From: Eledone cirrhosa
Lineage: Eukaryota
Length of the DNA stretch: 64,000 bases
Reading direction: 5' to 3'
NCBI GenBank assembly: GCA_964016885.1
Contig: OZ024741.1
Span: 360,282,001 to 360,346,000 of the forward strand
Notes under the pieces: model-generated
Told to the model about the DNA's origin: nothing
What the model saw: the letters and a program-made list of their open reading frames with translations, nothing else
The model's database searches: none
Translations under genes and position numbers: made by a program
In this document: positions 18,151 through 43,255 of the stretch, piece after piece
Numbering within the stretch: the stretch's first letter is position 1
Layout: every line of letters starts with the position of its first letter

Positions 18151-19020
18151 ATATGTTGTACACACTTACACAACTAATATGGAATACAAACAATTTTGTT
18201 AAAATGATTATGAAACTCTTGAGTTAAATCAAGCTAGAGGCAAAATAGAAAAACAAAATAAGTGTAAAAAGATTTGGAAAACTATCATCAAAATGAATAA
18301 AAGGTGAGTAATCTAAAGAAATTTTAAACATTCTTTAACAATAACTATATAACATACTTTTTTGTTTTTAGTCTGTCTGTTTTGTATTTTATTTTCCAAC
18401 TCAATAGGTAAGATTGTTGCTTGGAATTATATAATTAAGCAATCTAAATTTTTTATTTGTATATATAATGTATATACTTTAAATGTACAAACAGACTTGC
18501 TGCTGCTACAAAAATATATGTATGTTGATAGCAATCAAACCAGCATGTAAAGGTAAAAAAATACAAATGTACTACTGTTGAGTTATCCAGCAAATAAGAT
18601 ATTTCTACTTCAATAATAATAATAATGATGATGATGATGATGAGTCACCCTCCACTAATCATAAGAACTTAAAAAATATGACTACGAAAAATTGAAAAAA
18701 AACAAACAAACCCATAATAATAATCTAACAGTCTCTTCAATCTTACAGAACTGTTGTAAGTTCCTTGTTAAAATATACAGTGAAAGATTGATAGACATCA
18801 AGATTGGAATGATAAGATACTGCTGCATACGAGGAAATTGATGAAACTATCAAGAGCTGGGTAGGCATTAACAATGATACAAATACCTTTTCATAAGCAC
18901 AAAAGTCTGTCTCATGACACATTCTCTTTCTCTCTCACTATATATATATTATATATATATATATTATATATATATATATCATCGTTTAATGTCTATCTTC
19001 CACGCTAGCATATATATATA

Positions 19021-19662
19021 AAGTGACAATAAAAATTGCAGCTTTTTGTAAACTTTATTCCATATTACAATTGTTTCTATATCGATCAGCTCGGGTTTGA
19101 TCATGCAATCGGATCCCTACTCTTAATCGACACTTCTTCAGACAGGAGAGTTTACGTGGGTGGTCCCATCCAAACTGTTAACATACATCCAGTGTTCGTT
19201 TTATATACATGTTATTGGGTTATGGTGAGTTTGGGAGACAGGAGTGGGTAGATGAAGAATAGTGATTGATTTTCAATATCACAGAGGTGATGAATTGTAA
19301 AGAATTTATGTTTTGTCATTCACCAATCGATAGAACTGGTCATTCCATTTAATTAACCATGATGTAATAGTAAGAAAAGTACTCTACATTATGCAACTTA
19401 ACCATCGTTGATGTTGAGTCGCGTGGCTGGTGCAGGACTGGAGTTAAATATTTAGAGCAGAACTATCCCTTTAAATTGTTGATTTGGCAAAAACACTGTA
19501 TACATATATTTCAACAGCCTAGTTATGTAAGACCCTGACGACATCATTAGGTGAGGATTGTATACTTAGTTAATCAATAAAAGGAATTACAGCAAACACA
19601 GAGAGTAGAGAATATACTTGATTCAGAGATGGCCCGTGAATTTGGTGTTATTGTTGCAACAA
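19021..19662 (-). mobile_element. ORF-less hammerhead-bearing element (Penelope pLTR-like / retrozyme-like), bounded by (TA)n tracts
   Basis: A non-microsatellite block sandwiched between (TA)n runs. On the minus strand it has a TATA-like gtatataaaa (~19199-19208), then the hammerhead, then AATAAA (~19054-19059) before the TA run. No RT or GIY-YIG ORF seen. Confidence 0.5.
19059..19147 (-). ncRNA. Putative type I hammerhead ribozyme (minimal, palindromic stem III)
   Basis: The minus strand reads tcctgt-CTGAAGA-a-GTGTCGATT...GATCGATAT-a-GAAA-c-AATT-GTA^atatgga. It has the core CUGANGA/GAAA/NUH, a 9-bp stem II (with G-U pairs), stem III C-G closing a palindromic AATT loop, and an imperfect stem I (TCCTGT with ATA(T)GGA). 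Predicted cleavage between 19066 and 19065. Confidence 0.62.
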
Positions 19663-19969
19663 TATATATATATATATATATCATCATCGTTTTACGTCCG
19701 TTCTTCCACGCTAGCATGGGTTAGACGGGTTGTCCTGTTGTGGGCAGTGTCTGGTCGGCTGACCATGCCTTGCTCATACAGGAACTGATTTGGCTTGATT
19801 TCTACAGCTGGATGCCCTTCCTAACACCAACCTCATTTACAGTGAGTGCTGGGTGCTTTTTCGTGGCGCCTACACGTCCACTTTACAGTGTGGGCTGGGT
19901 GCTTTTTTGCCGTGGCACCTCCACGACCACCTTGCGGTGGGGGGTGTGGGGGCATATTGTCTATATGCT

Positions 19970-21867
19970 TCAGCTTGTACCCATGGGAGGTCGGGTACTC
20001 TGTATTACTGCGTGACGCCAGAAGTCACGGTCGTATGTCATCGCCTTTGAGAGATGTAATTGGGTAAGGTCGGCTTTTATCACCTCATCCCAGGTCATCT
20101 TGGGTCTCCCCACTCCGCGGTTCCCATCAACTTCTAGTGCTCTGCACCTTTTTATGCAGCTGTCATCCTTCATACGCATCATATGTCCATACCAGCGCAA
20201 CCGCCTCTCCTGCACACATCATTTGATTCCTCTTATGCTCAGTCTCTCTCTCAATTCATTTATGCTTTGTCGTTCACGTATATTACTGTTACACATCCAT
20301 CGGAGCATGCAGGCTTCGTTTCTCTCTAAACTACGTAAGTCTTCCACCTTCAGCGCCCAGGTCTCATTACCATGCAACATTGCTGTTCGGATACACGCAT
20401 CATACAGTCTGCCTTTCATTCTAAGGGAGAAGCCTTTTGCAGCTAGCAGTGGTAGTAGTTCCCTAAACTTCTTCCATCCCGTTCTTACCCTAGTTATTGT
20501 ACTTTCTGAACACTCACCTCCGCTGCTAATTCGGTCACCTAGGTAGCAGAAGCTGTCTACTGTTTCTACAGAGCCCTCCCAGAGATTGGTGGTACTTGTT
20601 TCCTGTGGCTGTTTGCTGCTTGCTGTCTCAGCACAGCTGCTGCATGTGAAGCCTACATTCTTAATTAAGCTTCCTGAGATCCCGCTACATCTCTTGTGTA
20701 CCCATTGTTTGCATTTGGGGAAGAGAATGGAGTTGCTACCTACACCTTTCCTACATACTGAGCAAGGCCATTTCCCTGAGGGGATTTGGGTTCTGTTTTC
20801 TCGTCTACTTACAAGGACCTTAGTCTTTGTCATATTGACTTTGAGACCCTTTCTTTCTAGTCCCTGCTTTCAAGTTTGGAATTTATTCTCTAGTTCTACC
20901 ATAGATTCAGCTATGAGTACGAGGTCATCAGCATACAGGAGTTCCCATGGGCATCCGGTCTTAAACTCCTCTGTTATTGCCTGCAGGACTATGATGAACA
21001 GGAGGGGCTAACAGAGCCCTGGTGGACCCCAACCTGTACGCTAAATTCCTTGCTATACTCATTGCTAATCCTAACTTTGCTGACTGCTCCCCTATACATG
21101 GCTTGTACCGCTTTCACAAGCCATTCATCTACTCCTAGTTTTCTAAGAGCCCACCAGATTACAGCACGTGGAACTCTGTCAAAGGCTTTCTCAAGGTCGA
21201 CAAATGCCAGGTAGAGTGGCTTACTTTTAGCTAGGTACTTTTCCTGTAACTGCCACACAAGGAAGAGGGCATCAGTGGTGCCTCTTCCTGGTACAAACCC
21301 AAATTGCATCTCGTCTAGTTTCACCCGGTCCCTAATCAACTGTGCTATAACTCTTTCTGTTACTTTCATGACCTGGTCCATCAGCTTTATACCTCTATAG
21401 TTTCCTCTATCTAGTGCATCACCTTTACCTTTGTAGCAGTTGACAATGATGCTACTGCACCAATCTTTTGGTATGACACCTTCTAGTATTACCTGGTTAA
21501 CAATACGTGTGGTTATAGTGTGACCTACAGACCCAGATGCCTTCAGCATCTCGGCAGCTATACCCGATGGACCGGTTGCCTTCCCCATCTTCATATCTTT
21601 GATTGCCTTACTTACTACGTTGCTGCTGACTTGTACTGCTGGCCCCTCTATAGGGTCTACTTGGGGTAGGGTCTCTTCTTCCCATGCATTCTCCTCATTT
21701 AGTAATCCATCATAATGACTCTTCCATGCATCTTTCTTCTCAGCACTTGTGAGGGCAAGCTCACCTTTATCATTCCGGATACACTTCTCTCCAATGACAT
21801 CACAACTATCTCTGACACACTGCCTCGCAATCTTGAATACCTCCTGTTTCTGGTCCTCACGTTGCAA
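19970..21867 (-). pseudogene. RTE ORF, reverse transcriptase, PHD-like finger and C-terminal segments (split)
   Basis: ORFs 20989..21867, 20219..20833 and 19970..20215 are colinear pieces of one RT ORF. Confidence 0.9.
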
Positions 21868-23017
21868 AACATGCTTGATTTTCTATCCTCTGCTTCCCTC
21901 CTAGCTTCCCTCTTGGTCTCTATGTAATGTACCCTGCTCCCCCCGTTTTTCCATTCTTTCCATGCCTGTCTCTTGGCCTTAACTGCTTCATCTACTTTAT
22001 TGTTCCACCACCAAGTCACTCTCCTCCTGCTTGAGGTCTTACTCCAGCCACAGACCTCATCCGTTGCCTCTAGTAAATTATTTTTTAGGAACTCCCAGTT
22101 CTCTTCTACATTAAATGTCTCTATCTGTTCTTCTTTACTGTCGTAGGCGTTGAGTAAAATATCTTTAAATCTGTTACTGGTTGAGGGGACTTTCAGCTTC
22201 CAGATCTTTCTTCTCCAGGTTGGCCTCTGTTTCCAGGTTCGTCTAGTTCTGACCGTGAGGTCGCTGACAACTAAGCTATGTTGGGATGTACATTCCTCAC
22301 TAGGGAAGGCTGTTGTGTTTACGACCGTCCATCTGTCACGTCCGCTGATGAGGATAAAATCTATCTGACTGGAGTGCTCCCCTGATCTATAGGTGATCAG
22401 GTGGTTGTCGGGTTTTTTAAAGTTTGTGTTACATATCGACATGTCATTAGCGTCGCAGAATTCTAGAAGTCTGAATCCTTCCTCATTTCTTGTGCCAACT
22501 CCATGGCCTCCATGTACTCTAATGAAGCCGTCGCAGTGTTTACCTACGTGTCCGTTAAAATCTCCTGCGATGATTAGGAAGTCATTGTCGTCTGTTAGAG
22601 CAGTAGTGTGCATTAGGGACTCATAAAACCTATCCTTAAGTTCGTCTGGCAGCCCCGATTGGGGTGCGTAAGCTGATATTATTGTGGTAATTGTTTTATT
22701 CAGGACTAGTCTGAGTTTAATGATTCTTGTATTTACCCTGTACACTGAGATTACTTTATCTACCCACTTGTCATCTAGTAGTATACCTACCCCACCCATC
22801 CCATCGTCATTTCCCACCCAGAAAAATTTGTAGCACCGACGTTTTCCTACCAGGACTCTGGCAGACTCTCCTCTCCATCTAGTCTCTTGCACACAGCATA
22901 CAACAATTTCCTTTCGCTCTAGCATTTCTACGATTTCTCCTGCTCTTCCTTTCATTGAGCCTACATTGATGGTACCAACTCGGAGTTTTGGGCATTTGTC
23001 GACACTCGTAGGGAAGA

Positions 23018-23020
<3 letters not shown>
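21699..23020 (-). pseudogene. RTE ORF, apurinic/apyrimidinic endonuclease segment
   Basis: ORF-track 21699..23120; the N-terminal ~33 aa is only read-through of flanking DNA and (TA)n. EEP-fold motifs are as listed above. Confidence 0.9.
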
Positions 23021-23067
<47 letters not shown>

Positions 23068-23885
23068 GGCCTCCAAGACTGGTAGGAGGGAGAGGAAAAT
23101 ATCCTCAGGACACATGTCACCAGGTCTGAGAATCAAATCTGCAACTTTATAATCATGAGTCTAACACCCTAACCACTAGGCCATGCATTCACTAAGGAAT
23201 TTATTCTGAGCCATTAAAAAGGATTAGAAATATTTAAAAGACAAAACAAACTTAAGTGATTCTTTATCTTCTTCCATCTGTCTAATGTAGACATAAGAAC
23301 CATTTATATCTAAACAGAGTGAGGTAGAAACAAAAATATAAATATTGGAATGAATAAGCAAGTCATTTTACATTGAACCTTTTCTTTTATATAAAAGTTT
23401 GCAGGTTTGATGTGAAGTGAGAATTAGAAACTAGACAAACATTTTAAGTTCTAGGTTTGAAAGGGTGCTAGAATACTTAAAATATAATCGTCATAATGAT
23501 GACGATGATAAATTCTCCTTATGATTCTTTTTTCTTTTTGTCTGGAAAGAAAGTGGTTGATTATCTGAAGAGATAAAGTTTTATCATAAGACAAAGCTTT
23601 AAGATGAAAATACGAGCAGCTCTGCTGAAATTTGGCAACACTAAGTAGGTGATTCTTTAGGAGTGAGACAAAAGATACAAGACACTAGATGAGATCACAT
23701 CAGGCTTTTTACTTTCAGTACTTGATAGAAAGGAAAAGGAAACAGATATAATAGTTACTTTTGAAAAAAAAAAAGATTATTTTTTAAGATAATCAGACTT
23801 TGTATGTAGCAGAGCTTATAGTTAAAATCACAGCAACTCATACATACCACAGAACTGATATGAGGGGATAGAAACAGTTACTCAC

Positions 23886-24006
23886 CTCTCCACTAACAAG
23901 ATGCTTGCCATCTCCAGAAAAAGCAACTGCAGTAATGGTTTTCTTGGAAGCATTGAAAATGTGAGTTTGCTTGTTGCGACGTGGATAAAAGATGGTGATA
24001 ACACAG
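23886..24006 (-). CDS. MAPKBP1: Next coding exon of the MAPKBP1/WDR62-family gene ([40 protein letters not shown])
   Basis: Acceptor ttctttcAG (24007-24008) and donor GTgag (23885-23881). It is 121 nt (1 nt + 40 codons) and completes the GG|C Gly codon from the 38403-38494 exon. The translation matches the family motif GCVVV.FNPR..KQ.HI.NSSRKTITALAFS.DGKYLVTGE. Confidence 0.93.
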
Positions 24007-26831
24007 CTGAAAGAACAAATGATAATGATAACAATATAGTTTCTTTGTTATTGCCACAAGAGCAATGGATGTGGTGACATTACAAGGACAACAAATTGAA
24101 TTAAATATACAATTACCTCAAAATACGTGTCCTGTGTGACCAGTACCAGAGCTAGAAATCATAATTAGTGATACTACAATACTGTTTTGGGTTGGATCAT
24201 CATCATTTAAGGTTTGATTCCCTGTTAGCAAGGGTTGGAGGGGTTATGATAGGCCAAGTCAGAACTCAAGCAGAGCCACTGACCTCTCAGACAGGTTAGG
24301 GGCCAGTATCTTGTAAGCATATATTCCTGCGCTCTACAGAGTGCATTTTATTGTGGCACCCATACTAAGAAGGTCGAAATATCTTTGACACAGTTGAAGA
24401 GTCCTCTCAACCCTTTGTTTGGCAGGCTTTCTATAACTGAATGCCCGTCCTATCATCAACTTATTTCCAGAAAATACAGTACTGGGTGTGTTTATCGTGA
24501 AGATTACTGTAGATCACCAATGCTGGATGGTTGGACAAATTGAGAAATAAGACATTTATGGAACAAATTCTATTATGTTATTTTTAAGTTAATGTTTCAT
24601 TGTTGTAAACTGAACAAATGTTATTGGTTTTTGTCTAGCCCAAGGAGAGCCCTGATCACGCAAAAATATGATCAAAAGTATTCTAATTGTGACTATCTTG
24701 CCTTGTATATCTAGGACTACATTGTCAAATGGGAGCTTCCCTTCAAGAGGGTATGGTATGATTTGAGGGGGAGATTTTGCAGCAATTTCTAGCAAGACAA
24801 GTGACTGTGTAGAGGTGACTGTAGAGGTTCCTTCATTAGCATTTTCTTTTTAATATTTAGTCAAGAATAAAAGGGCAATTCTCATGACTTTTTTCAGAGT
24901 TTCTGAGAGTGGTGGAAGGGAGGGCGATATCCTCAAACCAAAGACATGGTTCAAATGCTTGGAACAAAATGTACTCTGCTAAAGGCACCCAAGGGCCAGG
25001 TGGTGGTGTTAAACCAGTTGAGAGATTTGTGATCTATGGATTATTTGTATTCTATGGATTAGTTGTCCAGCACATTGACCTTTCAGCTACCAGACCATCT
25101 GAAATATTTCAATGTACAGTTATACTGAATATCTTTATACGAAGTCTTGATATAATTCCACTTAATTTCCAGTTAATTTTGTCAATGGTTATTTAACTCG
25201 TTCAATACCCACACACCCAAAACTGTCCTTTGCTTCTTAATCTAAAGCTTTTTGTTTTAAAGTTTTTATATTAAATTTCTATGTAAGAACATTTTAAGTT
25301 ACTATATTCTAAACACTAGCTTAATCTTTTCAGTACTTTTCAGTTCTAATGAAACAGACTATGATTTTCAATTAATTTTTTAAATAACCAAGAGTGTAGA
25401 GGGATCTAGTAAAGTACATTTTTATTATTAAATGCTTGAGGCATAAAATTTTGATGATGTTTTAAATTTAAATATAAACACTATAAAATAGTATCATAAA
25501 ACCAAGGCTGGTTTTAGGTAGTTTGTTATCAAAATGGTTAATAAAGGATAAGGCAGTTATTTCATTAATCTCTCCAAACTGATTATTTTCAAAACACAAA
25601 AGCAGAATATTTCATTAGAAATATGGTCACAATTGGTTAATAGAATATAAAAATTTAAACCTCCCTGTAAAGTCTATTATTAGGAAGTCTTGATAGGGAG
25701 ACAAGCATACAAGCAGCAGCCAAAGTGTATCTATTAGTATAGAGGTAACAAATGAAAATACAGTTTACATTGTCTGTTATCAAGTCTAGTCTGCTAACAG
25801 CTATTTAGATAACCTTTGACATTATCCAACAATCACTAACACTCACTATGAACAATAAAGACATTGCTGTTTATATCAGTATTATGTGAATTAAACCTTA
25901 GGAGGGAAACGTGCTTGAATTTTTTATATAATAAAATAAATACTAGCATAAAAATACTTCATGCAAGAATACATTGCTAAAAATGTCAAATAACGAAAAA
26001 ATATTTCTATTTTCACTTATTTTCAATGTATTTAGAGAGTAAAGCAACAAACACTATGTCTGTGTGTGACCCAATTTAGATAAATTGCCAGTTGAAAATT
26101 TCCTTTACATGTTCCTCCATTAATGCCATAATCACTGAGATAAAAATGAATGTCACATTTGCTTGTCACCTCACTCATACATTTGTAGCCTTGTGCTAGA
26201 GCAAAACAATATTCTTATGACCATAAGCCCCTCAGCCACACACAAAACAAAAGAGCATGGGTTGGTCTACACTGGTTCATTTGAGAAATCTAATTGAAAC
26301 TATCTTAGCTGGTTTACTTCATTTTTTATACCCTTCTCTCCTTCATGCTAACCCCATGTAATCCCAGCATGCATTTAAACTGCCACTGCAGTCTATTAGT
26401 TTTAAAGAGTAAGATATTCCCCAATACGCTTCTAAATGCCTGAAGAAATCTGTCTGCTCTGACCAAATCAAGGTAAAGTCAGCCACCTGCTTGAAGATAC
26501 CAAGGTGTGAAAGCATCAGGAAAATCCCCCATATTTCAAGATACAATCCTTTCTCAACAATACCTGAACCCCATCCCCACCTACAGTACATACACTTTGT
26601 TGACATTGAAATGGGTGTGAAGAATAATGGTGTGATTGCAGGGTTTGGCTATTGCTCTGGCAGCAGTAGTAGCCTCTGTGGAATATGGCTTGTTGACAGA
26701 CTTTCTGCTGCTCTGTCAAACCTGACTTTCCACTTAGAAAATAGGAGGGTCATTTTTTTCTTCTTTTTACCTCAACAAAAACCTCTTTAGATGGATTTTT
26801 CATTTTAACTGCATTGCACAAGCAGATTTAA

Positions 26832-27052
26832 CCCTTTAGCATTTATATTACTCTCTATATACTATTGTATTTTTGCAGTAAAGGCTTTACATCACATAAT
26901 TATCCCACATAATATTGAATCTATGAGATTTTGATATTATTTATTTTGAGAACAATACCTTAACATTAGTATGAGTGGCTAGTTATGGCTAGTTTGAACA
27001 GAAAGAGGTTAGAGAATTAAGCCCGGATACGGCCGTTTTAAATGTTAAAGGG
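26832..27052. mobile_element. piggyBac-type MITE family A (~220 bp), complete copy
   Basis: TTAA|CCCTTTAGCATTTA ... TAAATGTTAAAGGG|TTAA. Related copies at ~555-741, 14333-14521, 34643-34845, 43564-43771, 52165-52370, 59438-59654 and 60949-61511. Confidence 0.85.
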
Positions 27053-27954
27053 TTAATGTAGCAGGTAAAGGTAACTCTGCACCTGTGTGTGTGTTTGTGC
27101 TTTGCCAAGAAAGAAAGGCACTACTGGGGGGGGGGGGGGGGGGGGGGCATCTTTTCGTCTTAGTGATTGGTTGTTGGTGGAGGAAATTTCATTGCTCATC
27201 ATTGCTTGCTCTTGTCTGTTACCTTCTTTGAATCAATCATGATGGTTACTATTGTTGATTTTGCTATTTGACGTAGTTCATCATTTCTGCTTCAATCTCA
27301 GCAACAAGTTGTTGCTCTAAATACTCCCAAATACTCTCTTTTTCCCTCAATGAAGACTGGAATAGCCATGATGGTAGTAGCTGTATTGGTGACTAGCTGA
27401 TGAGGTAAGTTTTTAGTGATGAAAGTGGTGAGTGGGAGACTAATAGCAACATCCTCCCCACTGTGTGACCCCCTCCTCACACACACACACACACACACTT
27501 CGTAACTAACTGTCAAATGTTCATGCCACGATTAAAATTTTGAATGTTTTTATAAAAAAGAAAAGTGTTTCTATTGTTGTCCAATATATATAATCTTAAT
27601 GGGGTGATAAACAGGAACTAACTCACATCCCAACCCATGATAGGAGCTGGCTCCACAAGAAAAGGAAACAAAATTCAACAACAAAACCCTAAATGGGTAA
27701 ACTATCAATAAATATTCTATAATTCTTTCTTCACTTTCTTTTGTTCCTTACTAAGCATTGGGGGAGACACCATTTCTGTAGCAATTCTGTAGTGATTACT
27801 TGAAAGCAAAGTTGCTGACCTTGTGCTCCAACAACCTCCACCCTTCTCAGCATGGGGTGAAAATTAACCTGGAATTTCAAAGTTAAGGAGAGAAGAGAAA
27901 TTCCATAAACCTTAAAGGTGCTGTCAGATGTAGCCAGGGACTTGTTTAAGACAG

Positions 27955-28213
27955 GATTGTAATGCTCTGTAGTAATGACTGAAGTCCCCTACAACAATGA
28001 CTGAAGTCACTAGCAAGGGTTGTAACACCCTGTAGTAAAGACTGAGGTCAATATCGAGAGTCATGACATAGAAATGACTAGGATCACTACCCACGGTTGT
28101 GACAGCCTGTAGCAATGACAAGTCCCTACCCAGCATCGTGACACGCTGTAGTAATGACTAGGATCACTACCCAGAGTTGTGACAGCCTGTAGCAATGACC
28201 AAGGTCACTACCC
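27955..28213. repeat. ~40-bp minisatellite (~6 degenerate units)
   Basis: Unit approximately ttgtgacagcctgtagcaatgactaggatcactacccaga, repeated with variation. Confidence 0.8.
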
Positions 28214-29045
28214 TCTACTCTATTCATTAATTTAGGGGACAACAATAAAAATAATTTAAGAAACATAAAAAATGAGTGGCATAGTCTGGAAACAACTCTG
28301 CTAATGCCACCACCAACACCAACAATACTGATTTTTACTTTAGGCACAAGAACAATGATTTGTGGGGAGGGAAAAATTGATCATATTTACCAGGTACTTG
28401 ACTGGTACTATTTTATTTACCCAGCAAAGATAAAATGCAAACACAACTAAATACCACGAGGTATTTTGTATAACAGTTCTAATAATCATGACAACAGGAG
28501 TTTCTGTTACTATGGTTGACAGGCAGTGACTAACGTCATTCAGTAAACTGTGATATGGTAATATTAATCCTTTCATTACCATATTTGTAATGAATGACAT
28601 TGTCAAATAATTATGAAAATAATCAAGAACTTAGAAGGATTCAGTAATATAAATAGTTTTCTCATTATTTTCATCCTTACGGGGTCGATAAAATAAAGTA
28701 CCAGTAATGCACTGGGTAATTGCTGGCCTTGTGCCTAAAGTAGAAACAATTATTAAGCTGGTGTTTGGATCATAACTTATAGATTCTTCTATAAAATTAT
28801 GATGGAAGGTTTTTAGATAAATAGAGACACTTTAAAATAATAAGTTTTGTAAATAAGCATTGGAGCATTAAGTGAATTGAAATGCTTAGAAAATATAGAA
28901 AATCTCCAAGATAGCATTTCAACTCACTCAACACTCCAATGTTTATTTACAAAATGTTGTCGCAGTGAAAAGCTGATATTTAGCTATATTTAAGCCAGTA
29001 ACTGTCGTCAGGGTTCATTTAACTCAATGGTACACAACACTCAGC

Positions 29046-29285
29046 TTGAATTTGAGAGGTATAGAATTTGATTCCTTGTATGAGAAAAGACCTGACGGCC
29101 TTACCCTGTGCTCCTGGTCGAGAGACAGGTGCCTTGTCTGGGACGTCACAGTTAGTGACTCTTTTGCTTCTTCCCATATCCTGGATGCTGCAGTTAGGGT
29201 GAAAGCCACAGCTTCCGCAGCCAAACGGAACAAAATCTTAAAATACCGTGATCTGTCAGCCAACTACATTTTCCTCGCAATTCTG
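29046..29285 (+). mobile_element. Fragment of a restriction-like endonuclease (RLE) domain of a CRE-like non-LTR retrotransposon
   Basis: RPDGLTLCSWSRDRCLVWDVTVSDSFASSH...A.A...K..KYRDL matches the PD-x(12-14)-D RLE signature RPDG.T..PW..G..LVWD.T..DT.A.S. Confidence 0.75.
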
Positions 29286-32200: not shown

Positions 32201-35200
32201 GTTCCAAAAATATATTCCATCAGTTCTATATTGATGGAATGAACATCTATCAGTTTCAGTGATGAGTGTTCCAGTATGTTAAAATAAAGAGCAACTGGTT
32301 GAGGATTCCACAAATATGTGTACCCTTAATGTAAATTCTCTAGGAGATTCCACGAGATACATGTGATAAGGCTGGCCTTTTGAATTACAAAAGTAGCTCA
32401 TTTTATTTTAATATTAAGTTGTTGAACATTCTACACACAAGTACCTGCAACAATTCTCAGGAAGATTCAGCATAACTGTGTGTGACAATGCTAGCCTTTT
32501 GAATTACCAGCACAGTCCATCTTGTATTATGATATAAATAACATTTTACGGTGAATTGGCAGTATCGGTAGAGGGTCAGACGCCATGCTTTGCAAGCAAA
32601 GAGTTACGGCCCTTTATTGTCTGAGTTCAAATCCCGCCGAGGTTAACTTTGCCGTTCATCCTTATGAGGACGATAAAATAAAGTACCAGTAATACACTGG
32701 GAAAATTGCTGGCCTTGTGACAAAAGTAGAAACAATTATGATATAAATAACTAATATTCAATAGACATATTTACACTTAATATCATTTTCTGGGAGATTC
32801 AACATGACAGTGACAAGGCTAGTACTTTGAATTGCAAGCACAGTATATCTTGTATATTTAACCCATTTGATATCAAACAGCCTGAAACTGTCCCTGGTTC
32901 TACGATACAAAACTGTATGTTTTAAAGTGTTTATATTTATCTAAAAACCATTGTAATTTTTTTGAGAATTTTTGTTAAGTTATATTCCAATGAGAAAGTT
33001 ATATTACTGAAATTCTTGATTATTTTTTAAATGATTTCAAAATCATAGGTAGTGTTTATCATAAGAAATATGGTTAATAAAAGGCTATAGTATCTTTAGA
33101 AGTGGACAGGTCATTTTTGAAAAGTAAAAAATTGCACTGTGACTGTAATCACATGAAAAAGTCTCTACTTTAATGCTGCAAACCTTCGCTAGTCTGCTAG
33201 TAAAGATACTATAAACACGTACCCATAACATAATTCTTAAAGAAATTGTGCAACATGGTTGGCCTTTTATAACTAAAAACATTTTCTGTAATCTACCAGA
33301 CCCCTACCACTTGGGGGGGGGGGTGTTCTGCCAGTCATTTCACATTTAATGAAATATGCAAGCATGAGCTATGTTTAACCTTCTCAACTACATCCGACAG
33401 AGTGCTGATGATGTACAGCATCCTCCAGTGATGGCACTAAACTCCTCCCAGAAAAATGCAGCCCCAGCTTGCTGAAGTTCATTGAATCAGCCTCTTCTCC
33501 CACTCACACCCCTATGTCTCATCTACCATAACTCAATATTTTCTTATACATAGTATCTCACAAATAATGATTACACACTCACACACATCTATATGACTGT
33601 GTGGAGAGGGCTATATCTATATCCCCTAGACCCCACTTCCTTTAATAGTTATGCCTCAAGGAAATAGTTACCTCACCACACTTTTTTTAAAATCTTACAT
33701 AGCTTTCTTATACATCTTTACCTGCAATCTATCATTCTTATATGCTTTTGATCTGCAGACCAATGTTTCTTCTGACAGGATATATTGCTATTGTTGTAAT
33801 CAGTTATTGTTAATGTAGAAACAAGAGAGTTAAGACCCTCTACATTTTTTATTCAACCTCCAACCCATCCCACTGCTAAGGTCAATTTTCCCTTCCTCTT
33901 TCTTATTGATAAACAAAAAATAGCAGTCAATGAAGGGGTTGATTAAAACCAACTACACACCTATATTGTGCCAAAGTTAGTGATCTTTTATTGTTATTAT
34001 TTCCTATGTAAGAAGAATGTAAAAAAAAAACTATCAATATCATTGTTTATATTGCTAGAAAAAAAAAACAATAACATAGCATTGAAAAAGAAATGTTATG
34101 ATTAGCTAGGTTGTAACAACTATTTTGAAGTAACCAGAGATACACTTTTAAAATCTACAGCAGAGATTCTGAATGTGAAGCACACTGAATATGTGTGGTA
34201 CAACTTTTCTAAATTCTAGATTATATATTTTTAACACCAAACATGCTTTAAGAGACACATCAAATATTTTCAGGTGTTGCGGTGGGTCATGGAGTAAAAA
34301 AAGGTTAAGAACTAGAGACTGACAGCCTTTAACTGTATTGAATTAGCACTGAATAGATTAAATGAAGACCAAAGATAGTAGTATCCTTCCTCAATTGTAG
34401 ATACAGCATAACCAAATGGTTATGGGATTGGCATCGTAATCATTATGTCTCAGGTTAGATCCTATTGCATAGCATCTTGGGCAAGTGTCATTTACCAGAG
34501 TCTTAAATCAATCTATGCTTTGTGAATGAAATTGGATAGACAGAAACTGTTTGGAACTCTATCAGATGGACTGTACTTATAATTTAAAGAGCCAGCCTTG
34601 TAACACATTGTGTCATGCTAAATTTCTAGAGAATTACATTAACCCTTTAGCATTTAAACCGGCCATATCCGGTCAGAATTATCTCACCTCTTTCTGCCCA
34701 AACCAACCATAATCAGCTGCTCATACCAATGTTAAGGTATTGTTCTCAAAATAATAACATCAAAATCTCGTAGCTTTGATATTATGTGAGAATTATTTGA
34801 GATAAAGCCTTTACCATGAAAATACAATAGTAAATATAAAGTAGACATGCCTATCGAATGCACAGCCACTTACATGGAATTTCACAAGCCAGCCATTCCA
34901 TTGACTGAACAACTGGAACATGTATCATTGAAACTGATGTATGTCCCATTCAATCCATTCAATTTGTTAATTAGGCAAGAGATGAGATATGAACATTTGA
35001 CAGATAATATATTCACTTATTTATTTCATGGTGTCAAAATTTGTCACACTCTTAGTGAATTAGTTATTGACACAATTTTACTGCAGTGGAATTATGTCAA
35101 TGACAAAGTTGCAAATCCTTTGAAATACAGATTGTGCATATGCATGTATATGTGAAATGGACTGTATTTGCATGTGTGCACAAGCGTGTGGGAAATTTAA

Positions 35201-35462
35201 AAAATGTGTGTGTGTGTGTGTCTATATATATATATATGTGTGTTGAAAAAGAAGATAAGTAATTCCTATTGTCAGGTATAACCTATAAATTATGTTGACT
35301 GCTTTTATTTCTTATACTGAGGTTAAACCAGAACTTGGGTTTAAAACTTTCGAAATTTTATTCAGAGGTCGTGTTAACCATTTTTTCATCTCACACACAC
35401 ACACACACATACACATCTCATCCATCATTTTCCGTCCGCTTTTCCCTGCTTGCAAGGGTGGG

Positions 35463-35527
<65 letters not shown>

Positions 35528-35809
35528 CCACTAACTAAAACACGCAAATATACACAAAAGAGAAACACACCCAGAAGAAACACTCATACACAAACACATA
35601 TATACAAACAAATACAAACACACACACATGAATTAAAGTACACTATTGAGCCCATTCCTCTATTAAATATACACTCCTTTTGACACCTGTATATAGTCCA
35701 ACAGTATCAAATTCTATTAATATACAACACCCAATCTGCTTGTTGATACAATGTATAGAGAATGTCATAAGGAGCAAGTTGTCAGTAGGTGTGCACTGAA
35801 GGACTTTTG

Positions 35810-36545
35810 TTCATCATTATCATCGATTACCAGCTATCTTCCACACTAGCATGAGTTAGACAGGTTTGTCCTATTTAGAGGCAAATTGGGTCGGGTGACC
35901 CTGTCTCGCTCATATATAGGAGAGTTTCTGGCTGGTTTTCTACAGTTGGATGTCCTTCTTAATGCCAACCACATTGACAGTGTAGGCTGGGTACTTTTTG
36001 CTGTGTCTTTTACACACTTTACAGTGTAGGTTGGATGTTTTAGGGTTGATTTTCTACGGCTGGATGCCCTTCCTACTGCCAACCACATTTACAGTGTAGG
36101 CTGGGTGCTTTTTGTCGTGACACCTACACGATCACTTTACAGTGTGGGCTGGCTGTTTTGTGGTACCAGTATAATATACATATACATACATGCACATATC
36201 ATGATAATGCTATACACACATATATATATATATATTTGCGTGCATATACATATACCATATATGTAATATACATACTCATATCATACATATACATACACAC
36301 TTCATATATATATACACACAAATATATCATCAACCTCATCGATTAGCATCCATCATTCGTGGGTTGGATGGATTGGCTCTTGTTTAGCTCACCTGGATTG
36401 GTTTCTACAGCTGGGTGCCCTTTCTACTGCCAACTACATTACAGTGTGTGGTGGGTGCTTTTTGTCATGTCACCTACACGACCACATTACAGTGTGGACT
36501 GGACACTTTTTTCATGACACCTACACGACCACTTTACAGTGGAGC
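35810..36545 (-). repeat. Cluster of RTE-3'UTR-derived ~45-bp repeats
   Basis: Multiple ttacagtgtaggctgggtgctttttgtcgtgacacctacacga and ggatgcccttcct...ccaaccac modules. A similar array occurs at 47340-47545. Confidence 0.7.
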
Positions 36546-36879
36546 CTTGGCACTTTTGTCTTGGGACTGGGGGGGGGGGAGCTTGGGCGAAGATGTGAAC
36601 AGGGTAGTAGGGGAGTTATGGTTACCGCTAAGGGAGGTGAGTGAGAGGAGATAGAAGGTTGAAGAAGGTGTTGCCTACTACGTATAAGCCTCATCCTGAG
36701 AATAATAGTGGGCGGGTCTTCTGTAAAGCTGCATAGCGCCAGAGGTCACAGTGCTGTGTCGTTGCCTTTGAGAGGTGTAATTGTGCAAGGTCAGCTTTTA
36801 TTACATCATCCCAAGTCTTCCTAAGCCTGCCCACACCACCGCTACTATCGACTTTGAGTGCTCTGCACCTTATTGTTCA

Positions 36880-37320
36880 CATTTAAACAGGGATAAAAGA
36901 TTACACTACTGTGTGATTCAATGTGGTGCAGTGTGGAGGTGTATGGTTTGGTGTGGTTGCTGTTTCTAAAGCTCATAACTATATAGGTTTAGCTGGTTAG
37001 AAATTGGAGTGTGTTGGTGAGCAACTTCATACTAATTAATTAGGATCCATTTTTGTGTATGGGGCAATACAGTCTAGGATTTTTTTGTGTATAGCAGCAA
37101 CACCATCATAGATGTGACGACAGTACTCCATAGTGGGTCTCACCTGGGCTTTACAGAGGTTTAGTAGTTGTTTGCCTACATAGAGGCTCTCAAAGTCCTT
37201 GTTTATAGAAGAGGCTCTCTTTGAAAGTTAATGTTTAATGGAGCTCTGTGTCGTAACAGCACCATCTTAGGTGTGAGGGCAATAACTCCATTGTGGGTTT
37301 CACCTGAGCCTTTTAGAAGC
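36880..37320 (-). mobile_element. Decayed CR1/Jockey-group LINE fragment with an internal duplication
   Basis: The minus strand gives QLLNLCKAQVRPTMEYCRHIYDG...ILDCI (cf. L.LYKA.VRP.MEYCS.IW). The AQV(R/K)PTME segment occurs twice (~37090-37160 and ~37250-37315). Confidence 0.6.
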
Positions 37321-37899
37321 TCCTTTAAAAGTCTTTATGGGAATAGTTTAGGTCTATCAGAAGTTGATGATATTAGCTCTTGATTGAACACAGAGTTTAA
37401 AGATTGTAAAAGACTGGAGAGTTATGTCATCTGTATTATGTGATGTTAGTAATTATCAACTAACAGTTATTTTGTTATTACAGCTCACACTTATGTAGGT
37501 TTAGTTGGCGTCCTACAAGGTTACATCCTATAAGGTTTCTCACATGTTATAACCCTTCTCATAACCCCAGTGAAACATATTCAGATTTGACATTAGAAAT
37601 TGAACATATGATCTTATGATCACGAGTTCAACACCATAACCAGATCAATTCTGATCAAACAGACCTATGATCAAAAGCCACAACAATCCTCTTTTACTGG
37701 GAATATGAATATTGGAATATGAATATGTAAGACTAGATTATCTAATGTATCCTTCTATATTAAATATAAATATATAAAAATGAATATTAATCTCTCCATA
37801 TTCAACAATGAATTCTTTTTTCATAAAGGAATATAAATATGTATTACTAAATGAAGAAACCAGTATCATTATTAAATAATGAAATCAATATTATTGTTA

Positions 37900-38245
37900 T
37901 TACATTATCTAAAGTGTCCTGACCACATACAAAGGTGTGATTTGTAGGAGATTAGACTTCTATTTTAAGCAAGTTAGTTGTATGGTGTGATTTATCACAT
38001 TATCTAATGTGTCCTGCCGATATATACAAGATGGCATGGTGTAGTTTGAGGGTAATTATGCTGCTATTTCTAGCAGGGCAGACTGCAAGTTGGAGACTTC
38101 TTGTTGGCTTCTGTGGTGTGATTTAGCACATTATATATGTTTTGTCAATATAAATGACAGTAGGGTGTGATTTGAGGGAGGATAGCTATTTCTAGCAGTG
38201 GTGGCCACTACACAAAAGCCTCTTGTTAGTTTATGTTGTGTGGCT
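37900..38245. repeat. Three tandem ~100-130-bp degenerate units
   Basis: Recurrent acattatctaa.gtgtcctg...ggtgtgatttgaggg...ctatttctagcag. The same module occurs dispersed at ~24715-24800 and ~52885-52980. Confidence 0.6.
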
Positions 38246-38402
38246 CAGTGTATGTGTGTGTTTAATAAATGGCCTATACAAGTTCCAAATTGTAACAATA
38301 TATAGGTTACATTGATTAAATGGTATCATTGTTGATATGTTAGAAAGTAAATTTTGATAATAAACAAAAAATAATCTAGTCAAAGTGATGTGCCCTACTT
38401 AC

Positions 38403-38494
38403 CCTGCTGGGTAGGCTATAGCTCCTGTATTTGGGTCACATGTTAGTCCAGCCGTTGAGCTAATGGTTAATCCTAATACTTTCTCTAAAGTAAC
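38403..38494 (-). CDS. MAPKBP1: Coding exon of a MAPKBP1/WDR62-family WD40 protein (N-terminal region: [31 protein letters not shown])
   Basis: The reverse complement has a pyrimidine-rich acceptor ...ttcttAG (38495-38496) and a GTaag donor (38402-38398). It is 92 nt (30 codons + 2 nt). The translation matches my recollection of the MAPKBP1/WDR62 motif [10 protein letters not shown]...LACDP..G.VAYPAG. MAPKBP1 vs WDR62 cannot be separated; invertebrates typically have a single pro-orthologue. Confidence 0.92.
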
Positions 38495-38641
38495 CTAAGA
38501 AAGAAAACAAAAATAAATAAAATAAACATTTAAATATTAAACATAAATACTTAAAATAAATATTGATTTCTCTATATTTATCAATGCAGTTAATTTTTTC
38601 TTTTTTAATTAGGAGTATAAATATAAATATCCATTACAAAA

Positions 38642-38679
<38 letters not shown>

Positions 38680-39219
38680 ATATCATCATTATCAATTAAT
38701 GAAATTTAATATTGTATTTGTTTCACAAGATTCTTGATGGGAAATCATGTTTGCAACAGATATTGTTGTACTTTGGGAGGGTCATACTCACCAGTTGGAT
38801 TAATCAGGTAATTAATCAATCAATCAGTTGGTTAATTAATTAGTTCTTGCATCACAGCCTGTTACCTTCTTACAGACTATTGCCCTTTGTATCTCCTGTT
38901 TGTCTACACTTACTCCACATTTTCTGTGTCTTTCAGGGCCTCATGTCAGAGGTATAGTGTGCGCATGTACACACATGCACAAGTTTTGTTACTATTATTA
39001 AATACAAACATTGGGCAATGGATTGGCAGTATCGACAACATAAGGACATTTGAAAAATATTTTATATATTGCATATATTTTCATTTCTCATTTGATTTTT
39101 ATCTAAAGTGAACCCCACTCTCAACACTTTTGTATTCTGTGTATATATAGATGACAGAGAGAAGGAGAGGAGACACAGGCAACACTAGTGGCAGAGAATG
39201 CTTTTAGCACATTTGCCTT

Positions 39220-40740
39220 TTCCCTTTTTAACTTAAATTTGTGTTCCATGAATTTTTTCTTTGCCCATTTATTTCTCTGAGGGTTGTATGGGCAGAGTCC
39301 TCAACACTCCTTCCAGTGGGTCCTGTCAGAAACAGCCATCTTAAATTGATCCGGTTGGATCCAATCTTGCTTGGGGTCTACCCCTGGGTATCCTACGGAT
39401 TCGTTTTGCCTTTAATATCAGTCCAGTGTTAACCACATGCCCATAGATCGGAGCTATGATTTCTCAATTCGGAGAAGTAGCAGCTCTACCTGGAGTAACC
39501 AAGCTATGACCTATCAAGTAATATTACTCCAAAGACCATTTGGAGGAACTCCATTTCGGCTGCTAGTGTTTGCAATCATATTCTTTCAGTTATTACTCAA
39601 GATTCATGACCATAGGTAAGGGTTGGCACACATACCAAATTGAAGATAGTGGGTTTGGCTTTTACACCTACCTCACATCTGATTACCGAATGCTGAAGCT
39701 CCTGCAATTCTTACACTTAATTCAGCCTCCTGCCTTCTATCACTCTTGAACATGACCCTGAGATATTTGAACTTCTCTACCTGCTTTAGTGGAACTCCAT
39801 ATGTAGAATGCACTGTGTAGACCTTGAGAGGACAAGCCTCAGTTTTTGCAGCACTGATTTTCATTCCAGCCATGCAGCACTCATCATTTAAACCTAACAA
39901 GTGCATGTCAAAGATCACCGTCTGATTAGTTAAGTAATACCATATCGTCTGAAAATTTCAGCCAACTGATCCTACACCTGCCAGTCATGATACTAATTCC
40001 AACCTGCCTGCCCATGTCAATCCTGTTGATGAAGATTACGAATAGGAGAGGTGACAGAACGCACCCTTGGCAGAGTCTGACTCCCAAGTTGAATGGTTTT
40101 GATTTAGCACCATTGATCCAAACACAACTACTCAGGCATTTGTATAGAGATATCAGGGCAACAAGAAGCTGTTCCATACTCCTGCAGAACCTTCCAAAGC
40201 AATAATACACCTCTTGGCAGTACTCCCACAGACCTGCTGCAGTATGAATATTTGGTCTGCTGCGCTGTGTTTGTGATGAAAACCACACTGTTCATCAGCT
40301 AGCTTGGACTCAACAATCTCCCTTCATCTCTTTGCCAGACACTTAGCATAGACTTTACCAGGTAGGTTTAACAAGGAGATCCCTCTATAATTAGAGCAAT
40401 CTCTCTTTAATTGCTTTTGTGATCTCAGCAACCAAGAGATTAGTCATCACTCCCAGATGCACCCCGTATACATCAGAAGATGCTGTTGTGATCAGGTTTA
40501 GGAGATCAGCAAAGTAGTCTCTCCACTTCAAGAGGGTGCACCTCTCTGAAGAGAGAACCCCAGATGTGTTCCTGATAGCAGATATAGAGGAGGACTTATT
40601 ACATAGTTGGTTGATGGTCTGCCAAAACACTTTATTCGCTGATCTGAAGTTGTATTCCAGCTTAACCCTAAAGTCCTCCCATGTCTTAACTTCGGTCGTC
40701 TTTACTGTCTCTGTGACTTTTCACACCTGTTTGTAAGTGT
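39220..40740 (-). mobile_element. Old decayed RTE-like LINE (RT remnants)
   Basis: Fragments SSCVWINGAKSKPFNLGVRLCQGCVLSPLLFVIFI, FSDDMVLL, LKQVEKFKYLRVMF and LKWRDYFADLLN, with many stops. Confidence 0.8.
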
Positions 40741-41021
40741 AAGGAGAACTTATCTCCATTCTCAATAAAATGTTTTTGACAGATCATAGCATTCATGCAA
40801 CAGATGGACAATATGAATATCTAGGACCATGGGTGCTTCCCCACATACACTCCACCCTCAGATATCAAGGCTGGGAAATGGCCACATTAATTTCACCTGT
40901 GGGAGGAGGGTTTACTAAAGTCATTGTTACTGTTCCTTTTGCGTTAACATTTAAAAAAAAAAATCAATTAAAAATGAGAATTGTATATGCATCTGTGTAT
41001 ACAATGATAATTCAATGTATG

Positions 41022-41056
41022 TGAGAGAGGGAGGGAGGGAGGGAGGGATGGATGGG

Positions 41057-41102
<46 letters not shown>

Positions 41103-41160
41103 GCAAGAGAGAGAGAGCGAGAGAGAGAGAGCAAGAGAGAGAGAGCAAGAGAGAGATAAG
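41022..41160. repeat. Polypurine tract: (GGGA)n and (GA)n with a higher-order GAGCAA/GAGCGA pattern
   Basis: Directly visible. Confidence 0.9.
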
Positions 41161-41951
41161 TGAGATAAGGAAAATAATAGGGATAGAGTGAGAAAGCAAG
41201 AGAGATTAAATCATACATAATATAATACATAATCTGTGTAGAACTAGAAATAAGTTGAGGAAGCTTGCGTCACAGATCCTCTTTAGCTATTTATATTATA
41301 TAGTTGTAACACACTGACTAGAAATAGCAGTCAATGAAGGGGAAGTTGAAGTTGTTTACTCCCCAAGTATAACAATATTTGTTACGACACACGATTTCAT
41401 ACCAAAAAACCTCGCAAAACTAATTCATCGCCGTTATGTATATATATATATGTGTATATACATAAAGTATGTGGACAATCCAATTGAAAGAGAGAGAGTA
41501 GAGATTAGTTTGTGAGAATTAGATGCTCTCCTTGATACTGTTTCCACACTGTAAAGTGGACATGTAAAAGACGCAGCAAAAAGCCCCCAGCCCACACTGT
41601 AAATGTGGTTGGCATTGGGAAGGGCATCCAGCCATAGAAAACCAGCCAGAAACAACCCTATTTGAGCGAGCACGGTCACCCGACACAACTTGCCTCAAAA
41701 TAGGACCCGTCTAACCCATGCTAGCGTGGAAGATGGCCGATAATCAATGAGGATATATATATATATTTAAAAAAGGGAAAAGAATGACTAGTTCTAAACA
41801 ATTTAATTTAATTTTATAATATAATTTTACAAAATTAAATGAAATTGTTTAGAACTACAAGTGAAGTCATCCTTTTCCTTAAATATACCTAACTGTACCA
41901 AGGATTTCACACATTTTCCAACACACACACTCTCTCTCTTTCGAAGTAGTA

Positions 41952-42288
41952 TTCATCATCATTTCATTTTACGTCCACTTTTTCCCTGCTTGCAAGGGTG
42001 GGACGGGAACTGATTCTGGCTTGATTTCTACAGCTGGATGCCCTTCCTAACACCAACCTCATTTACAGTGAGTGCTGGGTGCTTTTTTGCCGTGGCACCT
42101 CCACGACCACTTTGCAGTGGAATGATAGGGACCCCAGTCCCTATCATCTCATTTCTACAGCTGAGTAAACTGGAGCAATGTGAAATAAAGTGTCTTGCTC
42201 AAGGAAACAACAGCACCCGGTCTGAGAATTGAACTCACAACCTTTCGATTGCAAGGCCAATGCTCTAACCACTAAGCCATGTGCCTCC
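41952..42288 (-). mobile_element. tRNA-derived SINE, full-length young copy
   Basis: Near-identical reverse complement of 60971-61317. Confidence 0.9.
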
Positions 42289-42721
42289 ATTATTTATTAA
42301 ATTCTTTTTTTTTCTTTTGAGAGTGAGGGTAACTTTTAAAATTTAGTTGCAGGCATTGCTGTGTGATTAAGGAGTTCGATTTGCAACCACATGAATTTAT
42401 TTTCCATCCCACTACATGGCCCCTTGGGTTAGTGTCTTCCTCAGGTCAACAAATGCTTTGTGATTGAAATTTGGTAGTCAGAAACTACCTGGAAGCTCAT
42501 TGTCATCATCATCACCATTTAATATCCATGTTTCCCTACTAGCAAAGGTTGGAGGGGTCTTCACAGACTGTGTCAGAATTGAAGCAGGTCTACTGAGCCG
42601 CCCCCCCCCCTCCACCAGACAAGCCAGGGGCCCACATCTCGCTTGCATACAGTCCCACACTATACCAAGTGCATTTTATGGTGGCACCAGCACTAGAGAT
42701 GTCTTTGACACAACTGAAGAG

Positions 42722-43255
42722 TCCTAATGAGTGCTGGGTGCTTTTTTGATATATAAGGGCTGACGGACCCATCATATATATCAATGCCAGTACCGGTGGT
42801 ATCTCAACACACTCAATGGGCAATGTAAGATACATTACCAGAGTATACACAGTTATTTGCCTCAACACAACACACGTAAAACGGGTGCCTATAAGGTTCC
42901 CGGACTCGAATTTCTGCCACACTAATGCAGCAGTAAGGTGCACTGCACCATCTGTCTGCATATATTATGCAACAATGCACAATCGGCTTATGCGGCTTCA
43001 TCAGCGGGTATTGCCTAATCAATAACCAATCGATCGACAGAATCCAAACACCAGCCCATGCCGGTCATGACTGTTTGTGACAACCGACACGGTAAAGCGA
43101 TTAGCAACTGGCAACCGATAGGACTATCTCTCAACTAGCCACCGATTTACAAATTTTACATGGGGACAGGAAGCTAAAAAGAATCCATCTTTTAGTTCCT
43201 GTCATAAGCTCTCAGCCAACGTGTCTCACACACAAATTATCAAGGGGTGAAAAGA
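42722..43255 (-). mobile_element. ORF-less, hairpin-rich, CpG-retaining hammerhead-bearing element (Penelope/retrozyme-like)
   Basis: A GC-richer block ending in (TA)n at ~43256. It contains the hammerhead at 42899-43008 plus hairpins ttgatatata...tatatatcaa (~42746-42784) and gacaggaa-g-ctaaaa...ttttag-ttcctgtc (~43165-43203). Boundaries are approximate. Confidence 0.5.
42899..43008 (-). ncRNA. Putative type I hammerhead ribozyme (minimal, palindromic stem III, large branched stem II)
   Basis: The minus strand reads cccg-CTGATGA-a-GCCGCAT...GTGTGGC-a-GAAA-t-TCGA-GTC^cggg. It has the core CUGAUGA/GAAA/GUC, stem I CCCG/CGGG, a 7-bp stem II, and stem III U-G closing a palindromic TCGA loop. 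Predicted cleavage between 42903 and 42902. Confidence 0.68.

What the first reader, a model, noticed from the sequence alone, without database searches (positions are those of the whole stretch)
19059..43008. Both hammerheads share a non-canonical A-A at positions 10.1/11.1 and an oversized stem II: a possible lineage-specific hammerhead variant
Seen: two elements with no other sequence similarity both read CUGANGA-A-[helix]-A-GAAA, whereas the canonical core has a paired R10.1-Y11.1 (usually G-C). Both also have long (55-80 nt) structured stem II inserts and palindromic loop III, and both are sense to the host gene. Inference: two independent chance mutations to the same mismatch are less likely than a shared variant architecture. 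Standard hammerhead searches requiring the 10.1-11.1 pair would miss such a variant, so it could mark an under-annotated ribozyme/retrozyme system in this lineage. This rests on only two examples.
Basis: inference. Interest (0 to 1): 0.75.

Follow-up and report, generated by a model that had tools for sequence, protein, structure and literature searches.

The report
Mismatched hammerheads in Penelope-like retroelements
Both motifs are hammerhead-shaped RNAs at the tail ends of two unrelated, high-copy jumping elements; the A-A mismatch is real, but close relatives carry G-C, A-C, U-A or C-A at the same spot, so it likely arose twice in a loosely constrained position of a known, probably slow self-cutting RNA, and cutting is untested.

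Summary
Both cores read as described (minus strand, starting 19141 and 43004), and Rfam finds neither. Motif A ends a Hydra-clade Penelope-like retrotransposon. Motif B lies in an 845-nt non-coding unit inserted as 5'-truncated partial tandems into (TA)n.

A-A is a subfamily trait, not decay: 68 of 70 B copies chosen without regard to the junction have it. It is not one shared architecture. A's sister family has canonical G-C in the same register, B's sisters have A-C, and a short-stem family alternates U-A, C-A and A-A. Published Hydra-clade hammerheads already show mismatches here (15 of 26 rows, mostly U-U). A-A and 55-81-nt stem II inserts are not in that table.

B's core is conserved above background (p about 0.02), yet none of 86 B matches has its 5' end at the cut site, and an A subfamily spread with a broken palindrome. 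Likely a slow, dimer-dependent ribozyme that transposition does not strictly need. No RNA data. The scan noted similar mismatched Hydra-clade hammerheads before on other DNA. New variant of a known kind.

The parts
19059..19147 (-). Hammerhead motif A (type I): core 19141-19135, A10.1 at 19134, A11.1 at 19078, GAAA 19077-19074, palindromic loop III, predicted cut between 19066 and 19065 (GUA triplet); stem I weakened in this copy
19010..19306 (-). 5'-truncated 3' end (3' UTR/pseudo-LTR) of a Hydra-clade Penelope-like element, ending in (TA)n about 45 nt after the predicted cut
   Evidence: contiguous with a GIY-YIG ORF in other copies
42899..43008 (-). Hammerhead motif B (type I): core 43004-42998, A10.1 at 42997, A11.1 at 42915, GAAA 42914-42911, near-palindromic loop III, predicted cut between 42903 and 42902 (GUC triplet); branched stem II
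42749..43256 (-). 5'-truncated copy (about 510 of 845 nt) of a non-coding, Penelope-like tandem unit, flanked by TA repeats; fixed 3' end 155 nt after the predicted cut
38403..38494 (-). Exon of the host gene (MAPKBP1/WDR62-like), profile positions 2-16 of PF24780
   Evidence: E 0.053 alone; continuous with the next two exons
23886..24006 (-). Exon of the host gene, profile positions 18-56 of PF24780; the next exon lies 521 bases left of the window

Best explanation
The two motifs are type I hammerheads at the 3' ends of two unrelated Penelope-type retroelements, and their A-A likely arose separately by substitution at a 10.1-11.1 position that this transposon group leaves loosely constrained, giving ribozymes predicted to cut slowly and only as dimers. 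Shown: both are high-copy, 5'-truncated, with fixed 3' ends in (TA)n; A follows a Hydra-type GIY-YIG ORF; B is an ORF-less 845-nt unit in partial tandems; sister subfamilies differ at the junction. Inferred: two motifs pair through the palindromic loop III to build helix III; the 7-9 bp basal stem II holds the junction in place without a closing Watson-Crick pair; cutting, perhaps helped by the element's protein, trims long read-through or tandem transcripts; a Hydra-clade protein nicks (TA)n and reverse-transcribes from the fixed 3' end, mostly on RNA that is uncut at that site.
For: High copy number: 2360 and 1105 first-look candidates. A's flank runs back to a GIY-YIG ORF on the same strand in L062, L328, L330, L141, L142 and L143. 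The CxCX5C linker defining the Hydra clade (PMC8557442 section 11) was found in 40 of 40 loci fetched with that ORF. B: 30 of 30 loci chosen for the unit's start carry the unit's 3' end directly upstream, reaching 1.7 units; 3' ends cluster at one site. Junction states: A-type pattern, first 100 of 395 matches, 11.1 = C 42, U 26, A 26, G 6 (hand count), the C and U ones being the G10.1 sister. B-type pattern, first 100 of 751, A 60, C 35, U 3, G 2 (hand count). Short-stem CAAUUG class: U-A 11, C-A 5, A-A 1, U-U 1 of 18 stem-forming motifs among 30 loci. Homologous A-clade stems change in pairs (10.2/11.2 G-U, A-U, C-G; 10.5/11.5 U-A, G-C). In B, the 11 core positions deviate 1.2% against 3.0% at non-CpG background sites, with no shared variants; site-level permutation for core plus junction p about 0.02. 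Loop III self-duplex -10.7 kcal/mol in typical B copies, and no helix III forms in the constrained B monomer. Precedent: an axolotl hammerhead with U-U at the base of stem II cleaves 22% as monomer and much better as dimer (PMC7229834 section 15); a PLE hammerhead is protein-assisted and dispensable for insertion in vitro (PMC11167929 passages).
Against: No cleavage data. None of 86 B matches has a 5' end at the predicted cut, so nothing in the copies shows cutting. An A subfamily spread with A-G and a broken palindrome (7 of 8 A-G copies non-palindromic against 1 of 14 A-A; about half of the readable copies among 30 loci), so spreading does not need an intact motif. The conservation signal in B is modest and one of six regions tested; stem I was more variable than background (7.3%) and loop III not less. 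Direction of change (G-C to A-A) was not rooted on a tree. No autonomous partner of B was found. Published mismatches are mostly U-U, which is reported as the best-tolerated mispair (PMC3088659 passage); A-A may be worse.
Confidence: 0.55

Rival explanations
1. The A-A motifs are catalytically dead relics. The mismatch is a step in decay from G-C, and the fold is kept only by inheritance or as a binding mark for the element's protein.
For: Graded series of amplified states: G-C, A-A, then A-G with a broken palindrome in clade A; G-C, A-C, A-A in clade B. No 5' ends at the cut site. Hammerhead mutants did not impair insertion by a PLE protein in vitro. G10.1-C11.1 is described as highly conserved in PLE minimal hammerheads (PMC4209133).
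Against: B's core is conserved above background. Palindromic loop III persists across unrelated mismatch families, each with its own palindrome. Paired changes in stems I and II. A U-U junction ribozyme cleaves.
Confidence: 0.22
2. Element B is a large non-LTR retrozyme: tandem transcripts are cut efficiently by dimeric A-A hammerheads, ligated into an 845-nt circle, and copied round the circle by a Hydra-clade reverse transcriptase.
For: Head-to-tail partial tandems of up to 1.7 units with one hammerhead per unit. 11 of 86 matches extend past one unit, three passing both cut sites. No PLE protein similarity in the unit; circular fold z -3.6 against 25 shuffles. Circles would also leave no 5' ends at the cut site. 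PLEs were proposed as mobilisers of retrozymes.
Against: Partial tandems are ordinary for PLEs and arise from linear tandem templates. Known metazoan retrozyme RNAs are about 170-400 nt. No two-full-unit array among the 30 loci. The fixed 3' end is 155 nt away from the cut site.
Confidence: 0.18
3. One reading: one lineage-specific hammerhead architecture defined by A-A plus an oversized stem II, shared by descent or by a specific structural need.
For: A at 11.1 recurs in 9 of 19 clusters; A-A is the commonest junction among long-stem CAAUUG motifs (11 of 27); a third abundant long-stem A-A family exists.
Against: Sisters of both elements lack A-A. Junction state and stem length are uncoupled. 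A11.1 also occurs as a plain U-A pair in the same families. The elements share no sequence.
Confidence: 0.05

Closest known systems
Hammerheads of Hydra-clade Penelope-like elements (Craig et al. 2021, PMC8557442; section 11, passages, Files S1 Hydra sheet and S2 read)
   Same: Type I motif near the 3' end, (TA)n insertion, CxCX5C linker before the GIY-YIG domain; unpaired bases at the foot of stem II in 15 of 26 rows (14 U-U, 1 U-C); a C-A case in Chara PLE-X1; an Octopus family is listed.
   Different: No A-A or C-A among the Hydra rows; their stem II plus loop is under about 26 nt, against 55 and 81 nt here; most have a paired stem III with a 1-3 nt loop rather than an 8-nt palindrome. B has no ORF.
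Minimal and palindromic PLE hammerheads (Cervera and de la Pena 2014, PMC4209133; main text parts 1-2 of 4, supplement parts 1-2 of 3)
   Same: In pseudo-LTRs, palindromic loop III, short stem I, low activity and dimer requirement. Hydra and D. willistoni rows read as U-U at the junction; one of 56 GAAA cells reads AGAAA, which would make the Cotesia row A-A if the extracted order is kept (uncertain).
   Different: Their consensus has one extra base after A9 and a G10.1-C11.1 pair; here homology with the G-C sister shows a substitution of the pair. Stem II is far longer here.
Non-LTR retrozymes, axolotl HHR_Amex2 (PMC7229834; section 15 and passages)
   Same: Non-coding tandem unit with one type I hammerhead; mismatch at the base of helix II; weak monomer, better dimer.
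   Different: U-U rather than A-A; units 170-400 nt and shown to be circular RNAs. B is 845 nt, 5'-truncated with a fixed 3' end in (TA)n; expression unknown.
Natural U10.1-U11.1 core variant (Perreault et al. 2011, PMC3088659; passages)
   Same: Mismatch at the first pair of stem II in natural hammerheads.
   Different: U-U only; described as the best-tolerated mispair.

Membership tests
Hammerhead ribozyme, type I | CUGANGA, GAAA and UH core in order | tested here: met
   core intact in 58 of 70 B copies, 4 of 13 A copies
Hammerhead ribozyme, type I | Stems I and II | tested here: met
   stem I weak (3 contiguous pairs) in the window's A copy
Hammerhead ribozyme, type I | Paired R10.1-Y11.1 | tested here: not met
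   A-A in both; published exceptions exist, so the feature is typical rather than absolute
Hammerhead ribozyme, type I | Helix III (monomer) or palindrome allowing a dimer | tested here: met
   8-nt self-duplexes -6.4 (A), -6.1 (window B), -10.7 kcal/mol (typical B)
Hammerhead ribozyme, type I | Rfam hammerhead model match | tested here: not met
   no hammerhead family among 39 matches at E<=1
Hammerhead ribozyme, type I | Site-specific self-cleavage | not testable with these tools
   no RNA runs listed; 5' ends of copies give no sign of it
Hydra-clade Penelope-like element (element A) | C-terminal GIY-YIG domain with CxCX5C linker, no CCHH | tested here: met
   read in the L062 ORF; linker in 40 of 40 related loci; six loci link the ORF to the A flank; Pfam gave no hit for the domain
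Hydra-clade Penelope-like element (element A) | RT with DKT motif in the same element | tested here: inconclusive
   DKT seen in a related element in L130; no family-A copy long enough to include the RT was found
Hydra-clade Penelope-like element (element A) | (TA)n insertion, 5' truncation, hammerhead near the 3' end | tested here: met
Hydra-clade Penelope-like element (element A) | Placement in the clade on an RT tree | not tested
   assigned by motifs only
Non-autonomous Penelope-like element (element B) | Partial tandems, fixed 3' end, (TA)n target, no RT or EN | tested here: met
Non-autonomous Penelope-like element (element B) | Shared 3' end with an autonomous partner | tested here: inconclusive
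   PLE ORFs next to B copies were separate nested insertions
Non-LTR retrozyme (element B) | Tandem non-coding unit with one type I hammerhead | tested here: met
   partial tandems only
Non-LTR retrozyme (element B) | Unit of about 170-400 nt | tested here: not met
   845 nt
Non-LTR retrozyme (element B) | Expressed circular RNA | not testable with these tools
   no RNA run listed

The most novel reading that the evidence does not exclude
A-A and C-A junction hammerheads with 55-110-nt branched stem II are active dimeric ribozymes, widening the hammerhead core consensus to an unpaired N10.1-A11.1. Element B is then an 845-nt circular-RNA retrozyme, twice the known size, that uses Hydra-clade Penelope machinery: a direct link between retrozymes and their proposed mobiliser.
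Probability: 0.2. Interest if true: 0.68.

Novelty: new variant of a known kind. Interest (0 to 1): 0.38.

Why it matters
The genome holds natural series of amplified sister elements that differ at one catalytic-core pair (G-C, A-C, A-A, A-G; U-A, C-A, A-A). These make an open question testable: whether hammerheads in Penelope-like elements must cut for the element to spread, or merely ride along. If A-A versions cut, search descriptors need an unpaired 10.1-11.1 and a stem II of 100 nt or more; one loop class alone gave 1,832 long-stem matches here against 4 control matches. The surprise is limited, because junction mismatches are already tabulated for this clade.

Tried and rejected
Renumbering the first A as the known extra base after A9: rejected for A, since the G-C sister aligns without an indel.

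CpG decay as the source of A11.1: it would give U11.1 or destroy G12, and explains the U copies of the G-C sister only.

Linking A to the Neptune-type ORFs downstream in L061 and L062: rejected, they carry their own minimal hammerheads. Linking the G-C sister to the RT in L203: rejected, that element has its own hammerhead. Autonomous partner for B: ORFs beside 7 B-type loci among 171 oriented records; two followed up were nested insertions.

Cleavage footprint: no 5' end at unit positions 691-697; 4 independent ends at 683-690 inside the palindrome (about 1.1 expected from the local rate, post hoc) retain C17 and are not cut products.

A-B heterodimer in the host pre-mRNA: duplex +0.4 kcal/mol, not favoured.

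Expression: no RNA holder listed. Contigs of two runs of unknown kind, one sample, cover B but say nothing on expression.

Strand bias: no annotation available.

Papers not held: Lunse 2017, Thomson 1996 (35), Long and Uhlenbeck 1994 (40), Nelson and Uhlenbeck 2008 (90), Mir 2015 (99); kinetic data on 10.1-11.1 mispairs could therefore not be checked. PMC9901934 passages gave no value for this pair. One search crashed at one locus and after four of six copies.
Full report
OBSERVATION. B reads CCCG-CUGAUGA-A-[81 nt]-A-GAAA-UUCGAG-U-C-CGGG from 43008. A reads CUGAAGA-A-[55 nt]-A-GAAA-CAAUUG-U-A-AUAUGG from 19141. The inserts fold with a 7-9 bp basal helix and leave the two A's unpaired. Rfam gave 39 matches at E<=1 and no hammerhead. 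The two elements share no significant sequence. The host is a MAPKBP1/WDR62-like gene on the minus strand: three exons match PF24780 positions 2-16, 18-56 and 58-85. A is intronic and sense; B is sense if the unlocated first exon lies further upstream. The genome is 3.0 Gb; its repeats look octopus-like to me (recalled, from no call).

ELEMENT A. The search gave 1105 candidates; the best 40 are 82-89% identical. Copies are 5'-truncated and end in (TA)n. In L062, L328, L330, L141, L142 and L143 the flank runs back on the same strand to a GIY-YIG ORF; of six close relatives of that ORF fetched, three reached the hammerhead region. The ORF has a CxCX5C linker and no CCHH, the marks of the Hydra clade of Penelope-like elements (PMC8557442 section 11). 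The linker was in 40 of 40 loci fetched with it, and the first look found 54,520 candidates. No family-A copy with an RT was found.

ELEMENT B. 2360 candidates, best 40 at 97-98%. The full unit is 845 nt. In 30 of 30 loci chosen for the unit's start, the unit's own 3' end sits directly upstream, giving partial tandems up to 1.7 units. 3' ends are fixed and followed by TA repeats. The unit has no similarity to PLE proteins, and its one ORF over 40 codons (84) runs through the hammerhead. No autonomous partner was found.

IS A-A A FAMILY TRAIT? For B, yes: among 86 matches to a pattern downstream of the ribozyme, from 90 loci of 412 genome matches, 70 span the motif and 68 are A-A. A junction-blind pattern gave 751 matches; the first 100 had A 60, C 35, U 3, G 2 at 11.1 (hand count). 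Twenty non-A loci were fetched: where readable, 10.1 was A in all but one (G-C in L176), in sister subfamilies 75-90% identical to B. For A, 395 matches; first 100: C 42, U 26, A 26, G 6 (hand count). Within family A, 30 loci from a downstream pattern had A at 11.1 in 13 (three are one triplicated segment), G in 12, C in 1, and 4 unreadable (by eye). The A-G copies mostly also lack the palindrome.

THE WIDER SPECTRUM. A relaxed descriptor on 0.9 Mb of loci, a sample biased to A, B and PLE ORFs, gave 132 distinct motifs in 19 clusters: A-A 4, C-A 5, U-U 1, mixed A-U/G-U/A-C/G-C 2, G-U 3, G-C 2, extra-base minimal type 2 (shuffle control). Genome-wide patterns with loop CAAUUG gave 1,832 long-insert matches (control 4) and 373 short-insert matches (control 2). 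In the first 30 loci of each: long, 27 stem-forming, A-A 11, A-G 5, G-C 4, G-U 3, other 4; short, 18 stem-forming, U-A 11, C-A 5, A-A 1, U-U 1. Most long A-A hits are a third family related to A. Junction state and stem length are thus uncoupled, and A11.1 often sits in a plain U-A pair in sister copies.

LITERATURE. File S2 of PMC8557442 lists 26 Hydra-clade rows; by my reading 14 have U-U and 1 U-C at the junction, none A-A; Chara PLE-X1 has C-A. PMC4209133 describes palindromic, dimer-type, weakly active PLE hammerheads with a conserved G10.1-C11.1; its Fig. S3 text holds one AGAAA cell among 56, possibly an A-A case (order uncertain). Axolotl Amex2 has U-U and cleaves. Perreault et al. note natural U10.1-U11.1. 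A Poseidon hammerhead is protein-assisted and not needed for insertion in vitro. Searches found no paper describing A-A at this position or long-stem cephalopod hammerheads. Five relevant papers were not held, figures were not visible, and only parts of two supplements were read.

FUNCTION. For activity: B's 11 core positions deviate in 10 of 811 cells against 3.0% at non-CpG background sites, with no shared variants (site-level p about 0.02 with the junction); stem I and loop III show no such constraint. A-clade stems show paired changes. Loop III self-pairs, and the constrained B monomer forms no helix III. Against: no 5' end at the cut site among 86 matches, 11 extend past one unit and three pass both sites; the A-G, non-palindromic subfamily spread anyway. 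Re-ligated circles would also leave no such ends, so this does not separate slow cutting, no cutting and circularisation. No RNA run was listed.

VERDICT. Earlier notes of this scan reached a similar reading for other families; they are unchecked and not counted as support. Interest 0.38; new variant of a known kind.

Noticed in passing
element B, unit positions 543-550 (about window 43043-43050, minus strand): 5' ends of B copies pile up here (8 of 74, uniform expectation 0.85), at the foot of a 6-bp GC-rich hairpin just upstream of stem I; a reverse-transcriptase stop or a transcription start.
   Followed up: partly
L237, L240, L248, L260, L263, L264 and others: An amplified subfamily of element A carries A-G at the junction together with a 7-nt, non-palindromic loop III: a likely dead hammerhead that still spread.
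   Followed up: partly
L331-L412 (for example L331, L333, L395): A short-stem family with loop CAAUUG alternates U-A, C-A and A-A at 10.1/11.1 with paired changes in the stem; a compact natural test series.
   Followed up: partly
L364-L389: A third, abundant long-stem (62-nt) A-A family related to element A, with an unpaired pyrimidine step at stem II position 4.
   Followed up: partly
L128:8010-9874: A 466-bp tandem repeat, five copies, each with a canonical G-C hammerhead and short stem II; looks like a classical non-LTR retrozyme.
   Followed up: no
L063:9514-9850 (about 10 kb right of the window): An inverted pair of another PLE hammerhead family with G-U at the junction and a C-C step in stem II.
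   Followed up: no
L061 and L062: Neptune-type PLEs with minimal hammerheads nest in the TA run next to family-A copies; several PLE families pile into the same microsatellites.
   Followed up: partly
L061:2333: A C-A junction hammerhead with a 114-nt stem II insert, the longest seen.
   Followed up: no
window 19973-23132 and 6448-7721, minus strand: Two broken LINE copies with reverse-transcriptase-like and (in the longer one) endonuclease-like frames in introns of the host gene, also sense to it.
   Followed up: no
window 8112-8169, 42222-42279, 60980-61037: tRNA-like heads of a SINE family, Rfam tRNA matches just under the gathering score.
   Followed up: no
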